Program-made: the position numbers and the translations under genes | IMG/VR virus record: IMGVR_UViG_3300032327_000300 | Span: 1-30,496 of that record | Reading direction: 5' to 3' (one strand) | Source of the DNA: a virus | Taxonomy: Duplodnaviria > Caudoviricetes | DNA length: 30,496 nt | The notes under the pieces: generated by a model | Seen by the model: the letters and a program-made list of their open reading frames with translations, nothing else | Told to the model about the DNA's origin: nothing | Database searches by the model: none | Shown: positions 17,749 through 30,496 of the stretch, in pieces | Layout of the letters: each line of letters starts with the position of its first letter | How positions within the stretch are numbered: position 1 is the first letter of the stretch

Positions 17749-20700
17749 ATGAGTGGTGGCAAAGGCGGCGGAACAACGACTACAACCCAGTCCATTCCTA
17801 AGTGGGTTGAAGACGAATACAAGTATGTTGTTGGTCAAGCCAAGGACATCCAGAAAAACACACCCTTCACTCCATACGAAGGGGAATTTGTTGCGCCACT
17901 TTCTACTACCCAGCAGGCAGGCATTCAGAACGTCAATCAAGCGCAGGGAATGGCTCTCCCTGCGTATCAGTATGGCATGGGGCTGACATCGCAAGCCGCA
18001 CAGGGTGTTACGCCACAATTCAGCCAAGCTGGCCTCCAGCCGTATATGTCGCCATATTTGAACAATGTTGTCGGCGCGACTATGGCAAACCTGAACGAGC
18101 AGAACCGCCAGCAACAGCAACAGGCTGTCGGTTCCGCGATCCAGAAGGGTGCTTATGGCGGAGACCGCTACGGCATCCAGCAGGCGGAGATGGCCCGCCA
18201 GCAGGGTCTCGCAACGGGGCAGACCATCGGCAACCTATATCAGAGCGGCTACGGTCAGGCTCTTGGTCAATATAATCAAAACATCGCCCAGCAACAGGCA
18301 GATCAACAGCGGCGTTTGGCGGCTGGTCAGCAGTTTGCTCAATTGGGTGAAGGCGCACAGGGTTCTGTATTGCAGGGCGCACAAGCCCAGTTGATGGCTG
18401 GCGCACAGGAGCAGGCAACACAGCAGGCTTTGGATCAGGCCAAATACAATCAGTTCTTGCAACAGCAGGCCTATCCATTCCAGACCACATCTTGGCTGGC
18501 GAACATTGCGGAAGGTATTGGCTCACAGTCTGGCGGCACAAGCACGACAACTGCGCCGGGCCAGAGCGGTGCTGGCTCTTTCATTGGCCCCGTTCTTACC
18601 GCCGCCTCCATGTTCAAATGGTCTGACGAGCGCATGAAAGAAGACGCTGAAGTCGTGGGTAAAACCTTCGATGGTCAGCCAATCTACAAGTATCGCATGA
18701 AGGACGGCTCTGCTCCCGAATTGGGTCTTATGGCCCATGATGTTGAGAAGGTGCATCCAGAAGCCGTGCGGAATGTTGGCGGCTATAAGCAGGTCAATTA
18801 CGATGCCGCGACACACGATGCCGCAGAACGCGGCCACTTTGCCGCTGGCGGTGTTATTCCTATGGGCTTTGCCGCAGGTGGCAATCCTACTGCGCCGCAG
18901 TTTGGCATGATGCCTTATGTCGGCTTGGCTGGAAGCCTTGGTTATGTGCCAAATTCCAATATCCCTGTCGGCAAATCGACAATTCCAAAGCCGCCTCCAT
19001 CTCCACAGCAGGACAGCAATGCCGCGCAGATTGCCAAAGGTTTGCAGGCAATGCCTGATGCCGCAAAAAAACAACTTACCTCCAATGTGAAGGGTTTGTT
19101 TGACTCTGACGCATCAAAAATGTTTGGGCAGATGGGCGCAAAAGGTGATTTTAGCGGATTGAAAGCATCTGATGTTGCCCTTCCCAAAGATTTCTATGCT
19201 CCATCGGCTGATCCCTCTGCTTATGCTTCTTCTGGCGGGTTTGGTGATTGGCTGTCTGGCTTGTTTGGCGGCGGTGGGTTTGCAGATGGTGGTCTTGCTG
19301 GTGGTTACGCCTCTGGCGGTGTTGTGCCTCGTGGTCACTTTTTAGATGGCGGACCCGTTGATGACTTTGAGGCCCAGTTGGCTCGCATGAGAGCAACGAC
19401 TGCCGCAGTGGAAAGCAGTAACAACCCACGCATTACGGGGAAAGAAATACCATCTGGCCCATATGCTGGTGACAAGGCTTATGGTCTTTATCAGGTTATG
19501 GGGAAAAACATTCCTGATTGGACTGAAAAAGCATTGGGTCGCCGCATGACCCCAGAAGAATATCTGAATGACACAGAAGCCCAACATGCGGTCTATAACA
19601 AGATCGCTGGCGACAATCTGCGTAAATACGGAAACATCCCTGACGCCGTGTCTGTGTGGGCTTCCGGTCGCCCTCTGGGCGGCAACACAACCCGTGACCT
19701 TGTATCAGGCGTTCCCACAAGCGGATATGTCAGCAATTTCATGAAACGCATGGGCGAAAATCCAACTGGCGTTGTTGCCAATGACCCAGATATGCCTTCG
19801 CGCAAGGCCCAGCCTGCTGGCGGCTTTGTGATCCCGAACCCACCCGAAGCATGGACCCAGAAAGGTCTGGGCGAACGTCTTATGGACACTGAAGGCGCAC
19901 CCCGTTCACTGATCGAACGTGTTATCGGTTCCCCACTGTCTGATGAAGCCCGATCCGGCCTGATGGCGGCTGGCCTTGGCATGATGGCAAGCAAGGCGCG
20001 TCACGCTGGTCAACAGATCGGTGAAGGCGGTCTTGGTGGCCTCCAGACATACTACAATGCGCTTGCCAATAAGCAGGCTCAGGAAAAACAACAGGCTGAC
20101 ATTGGCTTCAAAGAGCGCGAAACGGCTGTTTCTGAAAAGCGTGTTGGTTTGGAAGAAAAGACAAAGAACCTTGAGGCTCTCAAGTTCTGGCAATCTCGCT
20201 TCATTCCAATCCCGACAGCGACAGGTGTCGTTTACCGTGACACTGTAAATGGGACTGAAATTCCAGAGGCAGAGTATCAGCGTCAGTTGCAGACGATCAT
20301 TCGTCAGTATGGTCTTTCCCCTGCCGAAGCTGGTGCATCCACATCCGCGCCATCTGGTCAGCCGCAGGTTTCACCACCAATCAAGATGGAACAGCCAAAG
20401 GTCACAACGGGCGAACCTGCTCCTACTACGACTGTGGCTCCAAAGGCTGGCGAACCAAAGCCAGAAGCGGGAAAACCAGAAGCGGGCAAGCCTGAACAGC
20501 CGCCTGTGAATGCGGATGTGTTCAAGAACGTCCACCCTGACTACAACCCCGATATCCTGCGGAACAAAGCGCGGGAGCAGGAGCAAATTGCCGCAAATGC
20601 CCAGCGCATCAAGGATGACAAGGCTGAAACATCTGCCCGCAATCTTGCCAAATATTATCGGGAAGAAGCCGAGAAGATTATGGCTGGCGATAAGAATGTT

Positions 20701-21462
20701 CGGTTTATGGATGGTTCGGTCGGCCCAGTCCCTGAACTTGCCGCCGCTAAAAATGCTCGTGTGGCTGATGAAAAATTTTCCGAGAAACAGGCAGAATCCA
20801 AGAGCAAGTTCACAGATGAGGCCAACAATTATTTGAAGTCGTATGACAGCCAACGGGCTTTGACGCAGAACCTGATCAATGTTTACCAGAAGGTTGAATT
20901 GAACAGGTTGTCCGAAGCAAAGGCCGACATGATTGGCATCATGAAGGAAATCCCCGGCGTTCGGAACTTTGTCGATGATTATATGAAGGCCCAACAGGCT
21001 GGAAATGATTTGGCAATGAAAGAAGCCGTCACATCTGCCTTCAAAGCCATTTCTGAAAATCAGGCGAACAAAGCACCCGCAACTGCATTGAAGGAAGCAT
21101 TGTTGACAGTTTCTCAGCCAAATATGGCGGCAGGAGCGAAATATGCACTGTTGACTGGTCAGTTGGCAAAGGCTGAGCAGGAAAAAGAACTGTATGAGGC
21201 TTGGATCAAAAGCGGCAAGAAAGGCGATCATGATGCTTTTGTGCAGAAGTTCCGCGATGAGCATCCTTATGAAAATTATGAAAAGGATATTGTCAACGGA
21301 ACCAAGTATTTCGCTGGCATGTCGCCGGGAGACATTGAAGTTTTGAGAAACAAACGCTCTTCCGAAACGGCTCCAGCCGCTAATCGGGCTGGCGGTATTA
21401 CTCAAGAACAAATTGATGCGGCTAGGGCTGAACTTGAACGGCGCAAGCAGGGGAGACCATAA
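17749..21462 (+). CDS. DNA ejection (pilot) polyprotein: Gln-rich N-terminus, internal S74 autocleavage domain, lytic transglycosylase, helical C-terminus (1237 aa)
   Basis: MSGGKGGGTTTTT start and Q/A/G-rich helices (YMSPYLNNVV, GAYGGDR). SDERMK at 18622, VES at ~19411, AYGLYQVM at 19477-19500. Confidence 0.8.
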   Translation: MSGGKGGGTTTTTQSIPKWVEDEYKYVVGQAKDIQKNTPFTPYEGEFVAPLSTTQQAGIQNVNQAQGMALPAYQYGMGLTSQAAQGVTPQFSQAGLQPYMSPYLNNVVGATMANLNEQNRQQQQQAVGSAIQKGAYGGDRYGIQQAEMARQQGLATGQTIGNLYQSGYGQALGQYNQNIAQQQADQQRRLAAGQQFAQLGEGAQGSVLQGAQAQLMAGAQEQATQQALDQAKYNQFLQQQAYPFQTTSWLANIAEGIGSQSGGTSTTTAPGQSGAGSFIGPVLTAASMFKWSDERMKEDAEVVGKTFDGQPIYKYRMKDGSAPELGLMAHDVEKVHPEAVRNVGGYKQVNYDAATHDAAERGHFAAGGVIPMGFAAGGNPTAPQFGMMPYVGLAGSLGYVPNSNIPVGKSTIPKPPPSPQQDSNAAQIAKGLQAMPDAAKKQLTSNVKGLFDSDASKMFGQMGAKGDFSGLKASDVALPKDFYAPSADPSAYASSGGFGDWLSGLFGGGGFADGGLAGGYASGGVVPRGHFLDGGPVDDFEAQLARMRATTAAVESSNNPRITGKEIPSGPYAGDKAYGLYQVMGKNIPDWTEKALGRRMTPEEYLNDTEAQHAVYNKIAGDNLRKYGNIPDAVSVWASGRPLGGNTTRDLVSGVPTSGYVSNFMKRMGENPTGVVANDPDMPSRKAQPAGGFVIPNPPEAWTQKGLGERLMDTEGAPRSLIERVIGSPLSDEARSGLMAAGLGMMASKARHAGQQIGEGGLGGLQTYYNALANKQAQEKQQADIGFKERETAVSEKRVGLEEKTKNLEALKFWQSRFIPIPTATGVVYRDTVNGTEIPEAEYQRQLQTIIRQYGLSPAEAGASTSAPSGQPQVSPPIKMEQPKVTTGEPAPTTTVAPKAGEPKPEAGKPEAGKPEQPPVNADVFKNVHPDYNPDILRNKAREQEQIAANAQRIKDDKAETSARNLAKYYREEAEKIMAGDKNVRFMDGSVGPVPELAAAKNARVADEKFSEKQAESKSKFTDEANNYLKSYDSQRALTQNLINVYQKVELNRLSEAKADMIGIMKEIPGVRNFVDDYMKAQQAGNDLAMKEAVTSAFKAISENQANKAPATALKEALLTVSQPNMAAGAKYALLTGQLAKAEQEKELYEAWIKSGKKGDHDAFVQKFRDEHPYENYEKDIVNGTKYFAGMSPGDIEVLRNKRSSETAPAANRAGGITQEQIDAARAELERRKQGRP

Positions 21463-28763: not shown

Positions 28764-28845
28764 TCTTTTTTGCACTAAACGAAAATGATGTCAACCATCC
28801 ACACCCCAAATTGACATTTTGATGGTTAACCCTCATTTACAAGAC
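28764..28845. promoter_or_regulatory. Back-to-back divergent promoters
   Basis: Minus-strand TTGACA at 28794-28789; plus-strand TTGACA at 28811-28816 with CATTTA 17 nt downstream. Inverted repeat AACCATC (28793-28799) / GATGGTT (28821-28827). Confidence 0.7.
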
Positions 28846-29067
28846 ATGCAAACACAACATCCATTGCGTCAGTGGCGCGTAAGACACAAGATATCGTTGG
28901 TTGAATTGGCTGGAAGGGTCTCTTCAACGGCGGCGACCCTGTCCAGAATTGAGCGGGCTTTGCATCTGCCAAGAAAAGGTCTGCTCAGGAACATACATTA
29001 TGTGACGGGCATCTCCGGCAAAAGGTTGATGCTGGCCTATTTGGATAAAACTGATGATCAGGCTTGA
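28846..29067 (+). CDS. XRE/Cro-like helix-turn-helix regulator (73 aa)
   Basis: HPLRQWRVRHKISLVELAGRVSSTAATLSRIER..HLP HTH pattern; first gene after the divergent promoter. Confidence 0.85.
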   Translation: MQTQHPLRQWRVRHKISLVELAGRVSSTAATLSRIERALHLPRKGLLRNIHYVTGISGKRLMLAYLDKTDDQA

Positions 29068-29434
29068 ATTGCCTTTTCCACCAAGCGCAAATGCCATCTG
29101 GCAGGGGAACCGCCAAGGCAAGGTGTTCAAGTCGCCCAAATACAAAGAGTGGCTGGACGAGGCTGGCTGGCTGGTTAAACAGCAAACCCGCAAGATCGTC
29201 CTTGGCCCGTATGTTTTGCAGGTGCAGGCCGTTCGACCCGACAAACGCCGCCGCGATCTGGACAACCTGCTGAAGGCATCGAGCGACCTGCTGACAAAAA
29301 TGAACATCGTCGAAGATGATTCGATGTGCAAAGCCATTGCCGCAGAGTGGGTTGAAGACGGCCCGCCCATCACCCTTATCGTTTACTCACTGGAGGATCA
29401 GACATGGAAAATCCCAAATCTTTGGCTGAACTGA
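29054..29434 (+). CDS. rusA: RusA Holliday junction resolvase
   Basis: LPFPPSAN..W and PDKRRRDLDNLLKASSDLL...EDDS catalytic motifs. Confidence 0.93.
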   Translation: MIRLELPFPPSANAIWQGNRQGKVFKSPKYKEWLDEAGWLVKQQTRKIVLGPYVLQVQAVRPDKRRRDLDNLLKASSDLLTKMNIVEDDSMCKAIAAEWVEDGPPITLIVYSLEDQTWKIPNLWLN

Positions 29435-29832
29435 AAGCTCACTATCTGGCGGTGAAGAAACGGCTGGGCGGTGTAGCTGGCGGGACAGGTGTGGTTGCAC
29501 CAGCGGTTGTCTTCCGCGAGCCTGAGCCAGACAAAGAGCCGGAGAAACCCGTTGATTCGTTCTTGTTCGATATCAACGTGCCGCGATACAAGTTTGTTCA
29601 GATGTTGCGGGATGTCGCGCACATGCATGGGGTTGATCCGCAGGTGGTGCTGTCTCCCTGCGCCAAGAAAGCCATTGTGCAAGTTCGGCACGAGGTTCAA
29701 TACAAGGCCCGCAATGATCTTGGTATGACCCTGACCCAAATCGGGCGCATCTTCAACCGTGACCACACAACCGTGTTGAACGCTGTGCGGAGCCATCAGA
29801 AAAAGATTGATGCACAGGCAAACCACGCATAG
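29404..29832 (+). CDS. Protein with DnaA C-terminal (domain IV)-like HTH
   Basis: VQVRHEVQYKARNDLGMTLTQIGRIFNRDHTTVLNAVR matches the DnaA domain IV RDHTTV signature; no AAA+ domain. Confidence 0.85.
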   Translation: MENPKSLAELKAHYLAVKKRLGGVAGGTGVVAPAVVFREPEPDKEPEKPVDSFLFDINVPRYKFVQMLRDVAHMHGVDPQVVLSPCAKKAIVQVRHEVQYKARNDLGMTLTQIGRIFNRDHTTVLNAVRSHQKKIDAQANHA

Positions 29833-29835
29833 AGT
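29807..29835 (+). promoter_or_regulatory. Predicted promoter of the suhB/alpha-r8-like sRNA
   Basis: TTGATG (29807-29812), 17 nt, TAGAGT (29830-29835); predicted +1 near 29842. Confidence 0.5.
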
Positions 29836-29840
29836 GATCT

Positions 29841-29903
29841 GGCTCTAGTCTCAGAGCGTTTCCTCCCAAAACTTGGCTGGGCCTTCGCGGTCCAGCTTTT
29901 TTT
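29841..29903 (+). ncRNA. suhB / alpha-r8 (MmgR/GsrN)-like small RNA
   Basis: 5' hairpin GCTCT/AGAGC, single-stranded GTTTCCTCCC-AAAACTTGG, then an intrinsic terminator. Matches my recollection of the alpha-r8 UUUCCUCCC core and architecture. Confidence 0.65.
29876..29903 (+). terminator. Rho-independent terminator
   Basis: Stem GCTGGGCC/GGTCCAGC with loop TTCGC, followed by T7. Confidence 0.88.
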
Positions 29904-29905
29904 GT

Positions 29906-29934
29906 TTGACGGGATGCCACCAACTGTGCATTTT
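29906..29934 (+). promoter_or_regulatory. Predicted promoter of the replication gene
   Basis: TTGACG (29906-29911), 17 nt, CATTTT (29929-29934), immediately after the terminator. Confidence 0.55.
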
Positions 29935-29974
29935 AAAAGAAGAAGGGCCATCCAGCGGCAAACCGGATGACCCT
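29935..29974 (-). terminator. Minus-strand intrinsic terminator
   Basis: 12-bp stem AGGGUCAUCCGG/CUGGAUGGCCCU, with two G-U pairs possible only on the minus strand, followed by UCUUCUUUU. Confidence 0.7.
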
Positions 29975-30010
29975 GATTTCGGAACAGATGCGGTGTTCCG
30001 GTTGGATAAC
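29935..30010 (-). ncRNA. Putative counter-transcribed antisense RNA (~75 nt) to the replication-gene leader
   Basis: Minus-strand promoter TTGATC (30045-30040)-N17-TATATT (30022-30017); internal hairpin 29980-30000; minus-strand terminator 29974-29935. Confidence 0.6.
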
Positions 30011-30065
30011 GGTATCAATATAAAACCGTTCGCCCATCGGATCAACCAGAAAAAGGATGATTCAG

Positions 30066-30496
30066 GTGGCCAGCGCGATCCCATATATCCCCTTCTATCC
30101 CAGCGATTATCTGACAGACACTCAGCACCTGACAACTCAGGAGCATGGCGCATATTTTTTGCTAATCCTCCATTATTGGCAACGTGGTTGCGCCCTTGAG
30201 GATAACGACAAGAAGCTGTCGAGCATCGTAAAAATGGACCAATTTGACTGGGCAGAAGTGCGCCTTTCGTTGGAAGAATTTTTTGAAATTGATGGCGGTT
30301 TGTGGCATCATAAACGCATTGATCTTGAATTGCGGCGCGTCAAGGCGCGGGCGACCAAAGCGTCAAATGCTGGAAAAGCGTCTGCTCGTAAACGCTTGAA
30401 TGGCAAAGAAAATTTAACAGTCGTTCAACGGTCGTTCAATCCAAGTTCAACTTGGGACCAACAACCGTTCAACCATACAGATACAGATACAGATAC
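30066..30496 (+). CDS. DUF1376/YdaU-family replication initiator (lambda O-like position), 3'-truncated; missing from ORF track
   Basis: SD AAGGA precedes GTG 30066: MASAIPYIPFYPSDYLTDTQHLTTQEHGAYFLLILHYWQRG...LWHHKRIDLEL...AGKASARKR...HTDTDTD. Frame is open to the window end. Confidence 0.88.
   Translation, partial: MASAIPYIPFYPSDYLTDTQHLTTQEHGAYFLLILHYWQRGCALEDNDKKLSSIVKMDQFDWAEVRLSLEEFFEIDGGLWHHKRIDLELRRVKARATKASNAGKASARKRLNGKENLTVVQRSFNPSSTWDQQPFNHTDTDTD
30412..30496 (+). repeat. Putative replication origin iterons (11-bp period) plus (ATACAG)n
   Basis: GTTCAA at 30423, 30434, 30445 and 30467; degenerate copies at 30412 and 30456. ATACAG x3 from 30475. Confidence 0.75.

What the first reader, a model, noticed from the sequence alone, without database searches (positions are those of the whole stretch)
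29807..29903. Phage-encoded suhB/alpha-r8 (MmgR/GsrN)-like sRNA with an anti-Shine-Dalgarno seed
Seen: a complete ~62-nt transcription unit. It has a promoter (TTGATG-N17-TAGAGT) whose -10 overlaps the stop codon of the DnaA-C gene, a 5' hairpin starting at the predicted +1, an unpaired UUUCCUCCC tract (29859-29867) and a strong intrinsic terminator. Established: alphaproteobacterial alpha-r8/suhB sRNAs share a UUUCCUCCC core before a terminator; examples are Sinorhizobium MmgR (PHB/phasin control) and Caulobacter GsrN (general stress response). Inference: the phage carries a mimic of a host regulatory sRNA that could redirect host carbon-storage or stress regulons, or block GGAGG ribosome-binding sites.
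Basis: partly seen in the sequence, partly recalled or inferred. Interest (0 to 1): 0.85.

Follow-up and report, generated by a model that had tools for sequence, protein, structure and literature searches.

The report
Phage slot for host-type small RNA
This phage carries a copy of a known bacterial small-RNA family (alpha-r8: MmgR, SisA, SuhB) behind an early gene, and distant relatives keep the same short seed there even where the rest of the RNA differs, so the phage likely uses it to block ribosome-binding sites on host messenger RNAs.

Summary
Real. Rfam RF00519 (suhB/mmgR, alpha-r8) matches 29835-29912 at 43.8 bits, cut-off 41. The 14-nt core is invariant in five close phages whose four-fold sites are 75% polymorphic.

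What this window adds: among 41 distinct relatives picked by protein, 22 have a promoter-like site and a terminator behind the DnaA-C-type gene. 19 of those 22 keep CCUCC (4.9 expected), in several different scaffolds. 17 lack all three; 2 are truncated. The seed therefore appears selected, which favours a trans-acting anti-Shine-Dalgarno RNA over a bare terminator. Host homologues repress TonB-dependent receptor and PHB mRNAs.

Phage copies are common: 115 of 119 motif-selected viral records match the model. This scan has noted phage alpha-r8 copies before on other DNA. I found no paper on them.

Corrections: the papers read place GsrN outside alpha-r8, and the window's 10-mer ends in A, not U. 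Not shown: expression, host and targets. A separate antisense RNA candidate lies over the adjacent replication-gene leader.

The parts
29835..29912 (+). Rfam RF00519 (suhB/mmgR, alpha-r8) match; predicted RNA about 29842-29903 (62 nt)
   Evidence: 43.8 bits over gathering score 41; close relatives 44.3-47.1 bits
29807..29835 (+). Predicted sigma-70 promoter P1: -35 TTGATG inside the DnaA-C-type gene, -10 TAGAGT on its stop codon
   Evidence: 8/12 consensus; conserved in 5 of 5 close phages; promoter-like site in 22 of 22 terminator-bearing junctions; not listed
29842..29857 (+). Short 5' hairpin (5 bp)
   Evidence: fold; pairs never vary in 4 sequences, so no covariation support
29859..29874 (+). 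Unpaired anti-Shine-Dalgarno seed UUUCCUCCC, three variable bases, then ACUU
   Evidence: 29854-29867 0 of 14 columns variable, 29871-29874 0 of 4, 29868-29870 3 of 3
29875..29903 (+). Intrinsic terminator-like stem-loop and U7 tail
   Evidence: one double-sided change in 4 sequences, not above shuffles
29404..29832 (+). Upstream 142-aa gene with a DnaA C-terminal helix-turn-helix; carries P1 in its last codons
   Evidence: PF08299 E 7e-13; phrog_27829
28819..29434 (+). Cro-like HTH gene (28819-29067) and RusA resolvase gene (29054-29434), start of the operon
   Evidence: PF13560/PF01381 and PF05866; 'Cro-like' is my label from size and position
29906..29934 (+). Predicted promoter P2 (TTGACG-17-CATTTT) for the downstream replication gene, directly behind the terminator
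   Evidence: hexamers 1 of 12 columns variable, spacer 9 of 17; same site in distant L141
29935..30045 (-). Separate candidate antisense RNA over the replication-gene leader: -35 TTGATC 30045-30040, -10 TATATT 30022-30017, two hairpins, terminator 29974-29944
   Evidence: (z -5.2); found without alpha-r8 beside it in L146, L151, L156
30057..30494 (+). DUF1376 replication-type gene, cut by the contig end
   Evidence: PF07120 E 2e-22; PHROG primosomal protein

Best explanation
The stretch is a phage-borne member of the alpha-r8 (MmgR/SisA/SuhB) small-RNA family that is likely transcribed as a 62-nt RNA from a promoter in the end of the DnaA-C-type gene and likely uses its unpaired UUUCCUCCC seed, probably with host Hfq, to block ribosome-binding sites of host mRNAs. 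Shown: family match, anatomy, invariance of the seed in close phages, and persistence of promoter, seed and terminator in one slot across four deep lineages. Inferred: that it is expressed early in infection; that the host is an alphaproteobacterium; that the targets are those of the host homologues (TonB-dependent receptors, catabolic regulators, PHB synthesis). The gain would be fewer outer-membrane receptors for competing phages and carbon kept out of storage, whatever the host's own control of its copy. The terminator would also cut the replication gene off from upstream transcription, leaving it to promoter P2 and its antisense RNA.
For: Rfam match over cut-off. Four-fold sites are polymorphic at 43 of 57 in five close phages, the core at 0 of 14, while the discriminator (4 of 6) and the three bases after the seed (3 of 3) vary; a terminator does not need an unpaired conserved seed. 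Across 41 distinct junctions picked by protein: 22 have terminator and promoter-like site, 19 of them CCUCC versus 4.9 expected, and 17 have none of the three. The scaffold differs between lineages: open alpha-r8 form, shortened form, and a form with the seed in a hairpin loop whose stems differ in sequence. Path length from the window to rows outside its group is 1.3 changes per column or more. Host homologues: SisA represses a TonB-dependent receptor mRNA through this 10-mer, proven by compensatory mutation (PMC12559287); SuhB represses phbB and a TonB-dependent receptor with Hfq (bioRxiv 10.64898/2025.12.09.693200). No strong phage target in the window: best of 35 start regions -11.2 kcal/mol, level with the next two. 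Alphaproteobacterial host: the family is alphaproteobacterial and relative L146 encodes GcrA.
Against: No expression data and no host, so no target was tested. Only half the genome is held, so phage targets may lie outside it. The RNA is dispensable in the clade: 17 of 41 junctions lack it and the complete relative G130 has no RF00519 match. The seed has decayed in 3 of 22 slot junctions (L141, L170, L173). The 41 junctions are about five lineages with the slot and three without, so the counts overstate independence. Relatives beyond the close group do not reach the Rfam cut-off: 0 of 47 records, 7 of 47 at E <= 0.01. The upstream gene has a strong Shine-Dalgarno in 13 of 19 slot loci versus 3 of 15 others, which fits a self-target instead. 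Only 6 of 108 phage copies overall have a consensus promoter just upstream (1.9 expected), so the own-promoter layout is not general.
Confidence: 0.55

Rival explanations
1. The RNA is made but acts on the phage's own mRNAs, for instance the Shine-Dalgarno of the upstream DnaA-C-type gene or of strongly translated genes, to time the switch out of early expression.
For: The upstream gene's start region ranks first of 35 in the window. A strong Shine-Dalgarno there goes with the slot in 13 of 19 versus 3 of 15 loci. The slot is fixed next to this gene.
Against: The duplex is short (-11.2 kcal/mol) and no better than the next two sites. Lineage D and L181/L182 have the slot without that Shine-Dalgarno; L146, L184 and L185 have it without the slot. 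Rows are not independent. Alpha-r8 copies sit beside many unrelated phage genes.
Confidence: 0.17
2. The seed works as a decoy or sensor for a host sponge RNA of the CrfA type, or for Hfq: it soaks up the sponge so that the host's alpha-r8 regulon stays shut in starvation, or sponge binding alters read-through into the replication genes.
For: CrfA binds the alpha-r8 core and neutralises SisA under carbon starvation (PMC12559287). The cassette lies between the HTH gene and the replication or helicase gene, which are directly coupled in most slot-less relatives. In lineage D the helicase start is about 65-70 nt behind the stop and no consensus promoter was found in between.
Against: In the window the replication gene has its own conserved promoter P2, so read-through is not needed. 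The seed does not overlap the terminator stem in the fold. No sponge of the unknown host was searched.
Confidence: 0.15
3. A captured terminator cassette: the phage needs only the terminator, or makes the RNA merely as the 3' end of the early operon, and the seed is a passenger.
For: L141 keeps promoter, terminator and downstream leader with only a degenerate seed. Many phage copies sit at operon ends, for example behind major capsid and lysis genes.
Against: The seed is more conserved than the terminator stem and than synonymous sites. It survives across scaffolds at 19 of 22. The promoter-like site co-occurs with it and is missing in 17 of 17 slot-less junctions.
Confidence: 0.1
4. The alpha-r8 gene is an attachment-site remnant (attP) or host DNA flanking a prophage.
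For: In a few other records the copy faces an integrase gene (L007, L048, L080; L129) and some records are proviruses.
Against: In the window it lies inside the replication module with phage genes on both sides and no integrase among the 34 ORFs scanned. The slot is syntenic across the clade. All 8 motif-selected records with direct terminal repeats hold a match, 4 over cut-off.
Confidence: 0.03

Closest known systems
alpha-r8 / suhB family (Rfam RF00519): MmgR of Sinorhizobium meliloti
   Same: Model match over cut-off; weak 5' helix, unpaired core and terminator as described by PMC1273637 (passages) and PMC12559287 (passages).
   Different: Phage-borne; not beside an FGase gene; 10th core base is A; MmgR's NtrC/AniA control (PMC7143759 passages) has no tested counterpart here.
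SisA-D of Caulobacter crescentus and their sponge CrfA (PMC12559287; passages and sections 8, 9 read)
   Same: Same seed, shown there to pair with the leader of a TonB-dependent receptor mRNA.
   Different: Chromosomal; no phage copy is mentioned in the passages found for 'phage'. Targets of the phage RNA are unknown.
SuhB of Sphingopyxis granuli (bioRxiv 10.64898/2025.12.09.693200; abstract, passages, sections 18 and 20 read)
   Same: MmgR homologue that represses phbB, thnR and a TonB-dependent receptor at the Shine-Dalgarno, with Hfq.
   Different: Chromosomal and LysR-activated; 'phage' occurs 0 times in the text.
GsrN of Caulobacter (PMC5869019; passages read)
   Same: C-rich seed that pairs with G-rich mRNA sites.
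   Different: A different RNA: seed in a 5' loop, sigma-T controlled, BLAST hits limited to Caulobacteraceae, no mention of suhB, MmgR or alpha-r8.
Phage-encoded trans-acting sRNAs such as lambda PreS (10.1101/2024.10.31.621285, search listing only; the name PreS is recalled) and prophage anti-sRNAs AsxR/AgvB (named in PMC12559287)
   Same: Phage RNA predicted to act on host gene expression by base pairing.
   Different: As I recall them, those are phage-specific sequences; this one is a homologue of a core host regulator.
ctRNA of repABC plasmids (PMC7610768, passages), for the neighbouring antisense unit only
   Same: Small counter-transcribed RNA over the leader of a replication gene.
   Different: No Rfam ctRNA match at E <= 5 in 29700-30150; phage DUF1376 gene instead of repC.

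Membership tests
alpha-r8 / suhB (RF00519) | Covariance-model score at or above the gathering cut-off | tested here: met
   43.8 versus 41 bits, full model 1-77
alpha-r8 / suhB (RF00519) | Single-stranded 10-mer UUUCCUCCCU behind a weak hairpin | tested here: met
   9 of 10 bases in the window (last is A); full 10-mer in close relatives L124 and L138; unpaired in the fold
alpha-r8 / suhB (RF00519) | Rho-independent terminator at the 3' end | tested here: met
   9-bp stem and U7; a prediction from sequence
alpha-r8 / suhB (RF00519) | Own promoter (independent transcription unit) | tested here: inconclusive
   8/12 site, conserved and co-segregating with the slot, but below the scan's threshold; no start site observed
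alpha-r8 / suhB (RF00519) | Expressed, Hfq-bound, represses mRNAs at the Shine-Dalgarno | not testable with these tools
   needs RNA data and reporters
alpha-r8 / suhB (RF00519) | Linkage to the N-formylglutamate amidohydrolase gene (typical of the main host copy, not of paralogues) | tested here: not met
   neighbours are PF08299 and PF07120 genes; SisB-D also lack the link, so it is not required for membership
alpha-r8 / suhB (RF00519), for the diverged slot RNAs of relatives | Score over the gathering cut-off | tested here: not met
   0 of 47 records; 3 of 12 loci scanned give RF00519 at E 0.015-0.13 and no other bacterial sRNA family matches; I call them alpha-r8-like only
GsrN | Sigma-T promoter, 5' C-rich loop, sequence similarity to GsrN | not tested
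   no GsrN sequence was compared; the window's seed is not in a loop and the papers read treat GsrN separately
repABC ctRNA (neighbouring antisense unit) | Rfam match to a ctRNA family | tested here: not met
   no such match at E <= 5; it may still work alike

The most novel reading that the evidence does not exclude
A clade of alphaproteobacterial phages keeps a dedicated small-RNA slot at the end of its early operon, in which a captured host master regulator has been rebuilt into several scaffolds around one anti-Shine-Dalgarno seed. The RNA overrides the host's feast-famine switch: it shuts TonB-dependent receptors (superinfection exclusion) and storage-polymer synthesis and outcompetes the host's starvation sponge. 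This would be the RNA counterpart of auxiliary metabolic genes.
Probability: 0.3. Interest if true: 0.8.

Novelty: new variant of a known kind. Interest (0 to 1): 0.52.

Why it matters
Phages are known to carry host protein genes to steer metabolism. A phage homologue of a core host regulatory RNA, kept under selection on its seed, would be the RNA version of that strategy and is invisible to protein-based annotation; five of the six GenBank phage matches have no feature annotated under them or only a hypothetical gene. Because SisA, SuhB and MmgR have validated targets or phenotypes and reporters, the idea can be tested at once, also with cultured Bradyrhizobium phages that carry a copy. The score is held down because the family is known, phage copies are common and already noted by this scan, and no function is shown.

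Tried and rejected
RNA runs for 28800-30496: no RNA holder listed; this is no evidence either way.

Host identification failed. blastn of the region found only short Pseudomonas phage matches. tblastn of a virion protein found nothing among isolated phages; ERF gave only distant hits. The window's variant core matched four genome records, three Methyloligella and one uncultured alphaproteobacterium, with other flanks.

Recent capture by microhomology at the stop codon: considered because CATAG/CATAAG resembles the CATAGG motif of late-leader copies; dropped because the slot is clade-wide.

A TGCA-N5-TGCA operator on the -35: perfect in L174, L182 and L194, but also in slot-less L208, and absent in the window; not supported.

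Covariation in the window's close group: too little variation, 120 of 500 shuffles as high.

The loop-type scaffold outside this clade: 11 of 22 pattern hits lie in the slot; the other 11 lack the gene and show no terminator and were set aside as chance coding matches.

The leader pattern gave 13 hits: 6 real (3 close relatives plus L151, L156, L157) and 7 chance.

Literature searches that found no report of phage alpha-r8. The family phylogeny cited as ref. 42 in PMC12559287 was not seen and may mention phage copies; Rfam's member list was not seen; no supplements were read.

Full report
Setting. The window is a whole virus record, linear, about 51% complete, 51% GC. It holds virion, tail and lysis genes on the plus strand, recombination genes (Gam-like, ERF, SSB) on the minus strand, and a right-end operon: small HTH gene, RusA, a 142-aa DnaA-C-type HTH gene, the feature, then a DUF1376 replication-type gene cut by the contig end. 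No integrase or CI repressor is among the 34 ORFs scanned, so the lifestyle is open. The host is not identified; an alphaproteobacterium is inferred from the family's range (PMC12559287) and from a GcrA gene in relative L146.

Observation. RF00519 matches 29835-29912 at 43.8 bits over the cut-off of 41 and is the only gathering-level Rfam match in the window. The promoter scores 8 of 12, was not listed by the built-in scan and is not rare by itself (70 sites in 60,932 positions; 3% of shuffles). The family 10-mer is UUUCCUCCCU; the window has A in the last place, which is T in 100 of 109 distinct phage copies (four loci without a model match and one duplicate were dropped first) and in two close relatives.

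Close relatives. Four close phages (L122-L124, L138; 91-100% identity in the upstream protein) all keep the RNA. Four-fold sites of the upstream gene are polymorphic at 43 of 57, yet 29854-29867 (0 of 14) and ACUU (0 of 4) never change, while the discriminator (4 of 6) and the three bases behind the seed (3 of 3) do. Synonymous variation drops in the last 14 codons, where the -35 lies (4 of 12 versus 68 of 92, p 0.007); the window and L122 are identical over this stretch, so the figure is generous. Covariation in so few rows is not informative.

The clade. To avoid selecting on the RNA I collected relatives by RusA (120 found, best 80 kept; I used the 50 with 43% identity or more, of which 46 have the DnaA-C-type gene) and by the DnaA-C-type protein. 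After removing 10 duplicates and leaving out truncated or spurious rows (L139, L144, L145, L183), 41 distinct junctions remain. 22 have a terminator and all 22 a promoter-like site by a loose rule, with the -10 on the stop codon in 10. 19 of the 22 hold CCUCC within 75 nt, against 4.9 expected from shuffles; the other three have degenerate cores. 17 junctions have none of the three features, and in most of them the gene overlaps a helicase gene directly; 2 are cut by contig ends. The scaffolds differ: the window's open form; a shortened form (L180, L189, L194); a longer open form (L170, L173, L179); and a form with the seed in a hairpin loop followed by a constant stretch ending in GACU (L167, L168, L171, L174, L175, L181, L182), whose stems pair with different sequences. 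None reaches the Rfam cut-off (0 of 47 records; 7 at E <= 0.01; 3 of 12 loci at E 0.015-0.13), so they are alpha-r8-like rather than proven members. On a protein tree the absence needs three changes, which may be one gain and two losses; one origin is not excluded and not shown, and long branches meet at one join. The independent evidence is thus about five lineages with the slot and three without. A complete relative (G130) has no match at all, so the RNA is accessory.

Other phages. The exact core pattern occurs in about 240 viral stretches (120 fetched), against 7 for the reversed pattern. Of 119 IMG/VR records behind these loci, 115 match RF00519 at E <= 0.001 and 84 exceed the cut-off; of 6 GenBank phage records followed up (four Bradyrhizobium, two labelled Microcystis), 6 match and 3 exceed it. 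These sets were selected on the motif and give no prevalence. Of 145 roughly called neighbour ORFs at 74 loci, 47 have a PHROG match, among them major capsid, terminase, portal, repressor, integrase, endolysin, DNA polymerase and, five times, a NusG-like antiterminator ('NusG-like' is my reading of phrog_6386). I did not screen these loci for host genes, so some proviral records may show the host's own copy; the 8 records with direct terminal repeats all match. Only 6 of 108 copies have a consensus promoter just upstream (1.9 expected). This scan holds 26 earlier findings with these search words; 6 of the 8 shown concern phage or prophage copies. None concerned this stretch or this protein.

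Mechanism. An unpaired seed that outlasts its scaffold, travels with a promoter and ends in a U-tailed terminator is the anatomy of a trans-acting Hfq-type RNA. In hosts the same seed represses a TonB-dependent receptor mRNA by direct pairing (SisA), represses phbB and another receptor with Hfq (SuhB), and limits PHB (MmgR); CrfA sponges it in carbon starvation. I therefore put 0.55 on repression of host mRNAs. That TonB-dependent receptors often serve as phage receptors is recalled, not from a call, so superinfection exclusion is a second-level inference. Self-targeting has 0.17: the upstream gene's start ranks first but only barely and the association across the clade has exceptions both ways. 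Decoy or sensor for a sponge has 0.15, a passenger seed 0.10, an attachment site 0.03. Expression, Hfq binding, host and targets are all untested.

Neighbouring element. Directly behind the terminator lies promoter P2, and the leader of the replication gene carries on its minus strand a 9/12 promoter, two hairpins and a terminator (z -5.2). Both hexamers are nearly invariant with a variable 17-nt spacer in nine aligned loci; the first hairpin never varies and the second has double-sided changes at 5 pairs but also breaks in the alignment. It occurs without alpha-r8 in L146, L151 and L156. It looks like a counter-transcribed RNA of the kind that controls repC in repABC plasmids (PMC7610768 passages) but matches no such Rfam family. 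It implies that the replication gene here does not depend on read-through of the alpha-r8 terminator.

Comparison and novelty. The RNA is a member of RF00519 by score, core and terminator. GsrN is a different RNA according to the passages read. My searches found no paper on phage-borne alpha-r8, but the library lacks most subscription papers, including the family phylogeny, and I read no supplements. Verdict: a real, new phage variant of a known family; the clade-wide slot with a conserved seed is the new evidence; interest 0.52.

Noticed in passing
window 29935-30045, minus strand; also L141, L146:5724-5845, L151, L156: Conserved candidate antisense RNA of about 75 nt (promoter, two hairpins, terminator) over the leader of the replication gene; resembles plasmid ctRNA control and has no convincing Rfam family (weak BjrC68 hits in L141 and L146). 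Worth its own follow-up.
   Followed up: partly
window 29906-29934 +: Second promoter-like site directly behind the terminator, conserved hexamers with a variable spacer.
   Followed up: partly
L167:3265-3365, L168, L171, L174, L175, L181, L182: Loop-type anti-Shine-Dalgarno RNA with no Rfam match, found only in this slot; several slot RNAs show a second CU-rich stretch in the terminator loop.
   Followed up: partly
L022, L035, L045, L063, L081, L126 and others: A large group of phage alpha-r8 copies sits behind a hairpin, U-run and CATAGG motif, several of them between an antiterminator-like gene and the packaging genes; they may be the end of a terminated late leader.
   Followed up: partly
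L128 (PP395640) and L129 (OM681334): Two phages recorded as infecting Microcystis carry RF00519 over the cut-off, a family described as alphaproteobacterial; their true host may be an associated alphaproteobacterium.
   Followed up: no
L007, L048, L080, L129: Alpha-r8 converges on the end of an integrase gene; could mark an attachment site in those phages.
   Followed up: no
window 29404-29832: Stand-alone DnaA domain-IV-like protein, conserved in 46 of 50 RusA-selected loci; it may bind DnaA boxes of phage or host. Function not examined.
   Followed up: no
G046, G047, G043, G083, G093, G111, G008: Seven viral records hold two or three RF00519 matches, some in tandem.
   Followed up: no
window 17749-21462: 1237-aa protein with a DNA-ejection-type N-terminal part and an internal Peptidase_S74-like hit.
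   Followed up: no
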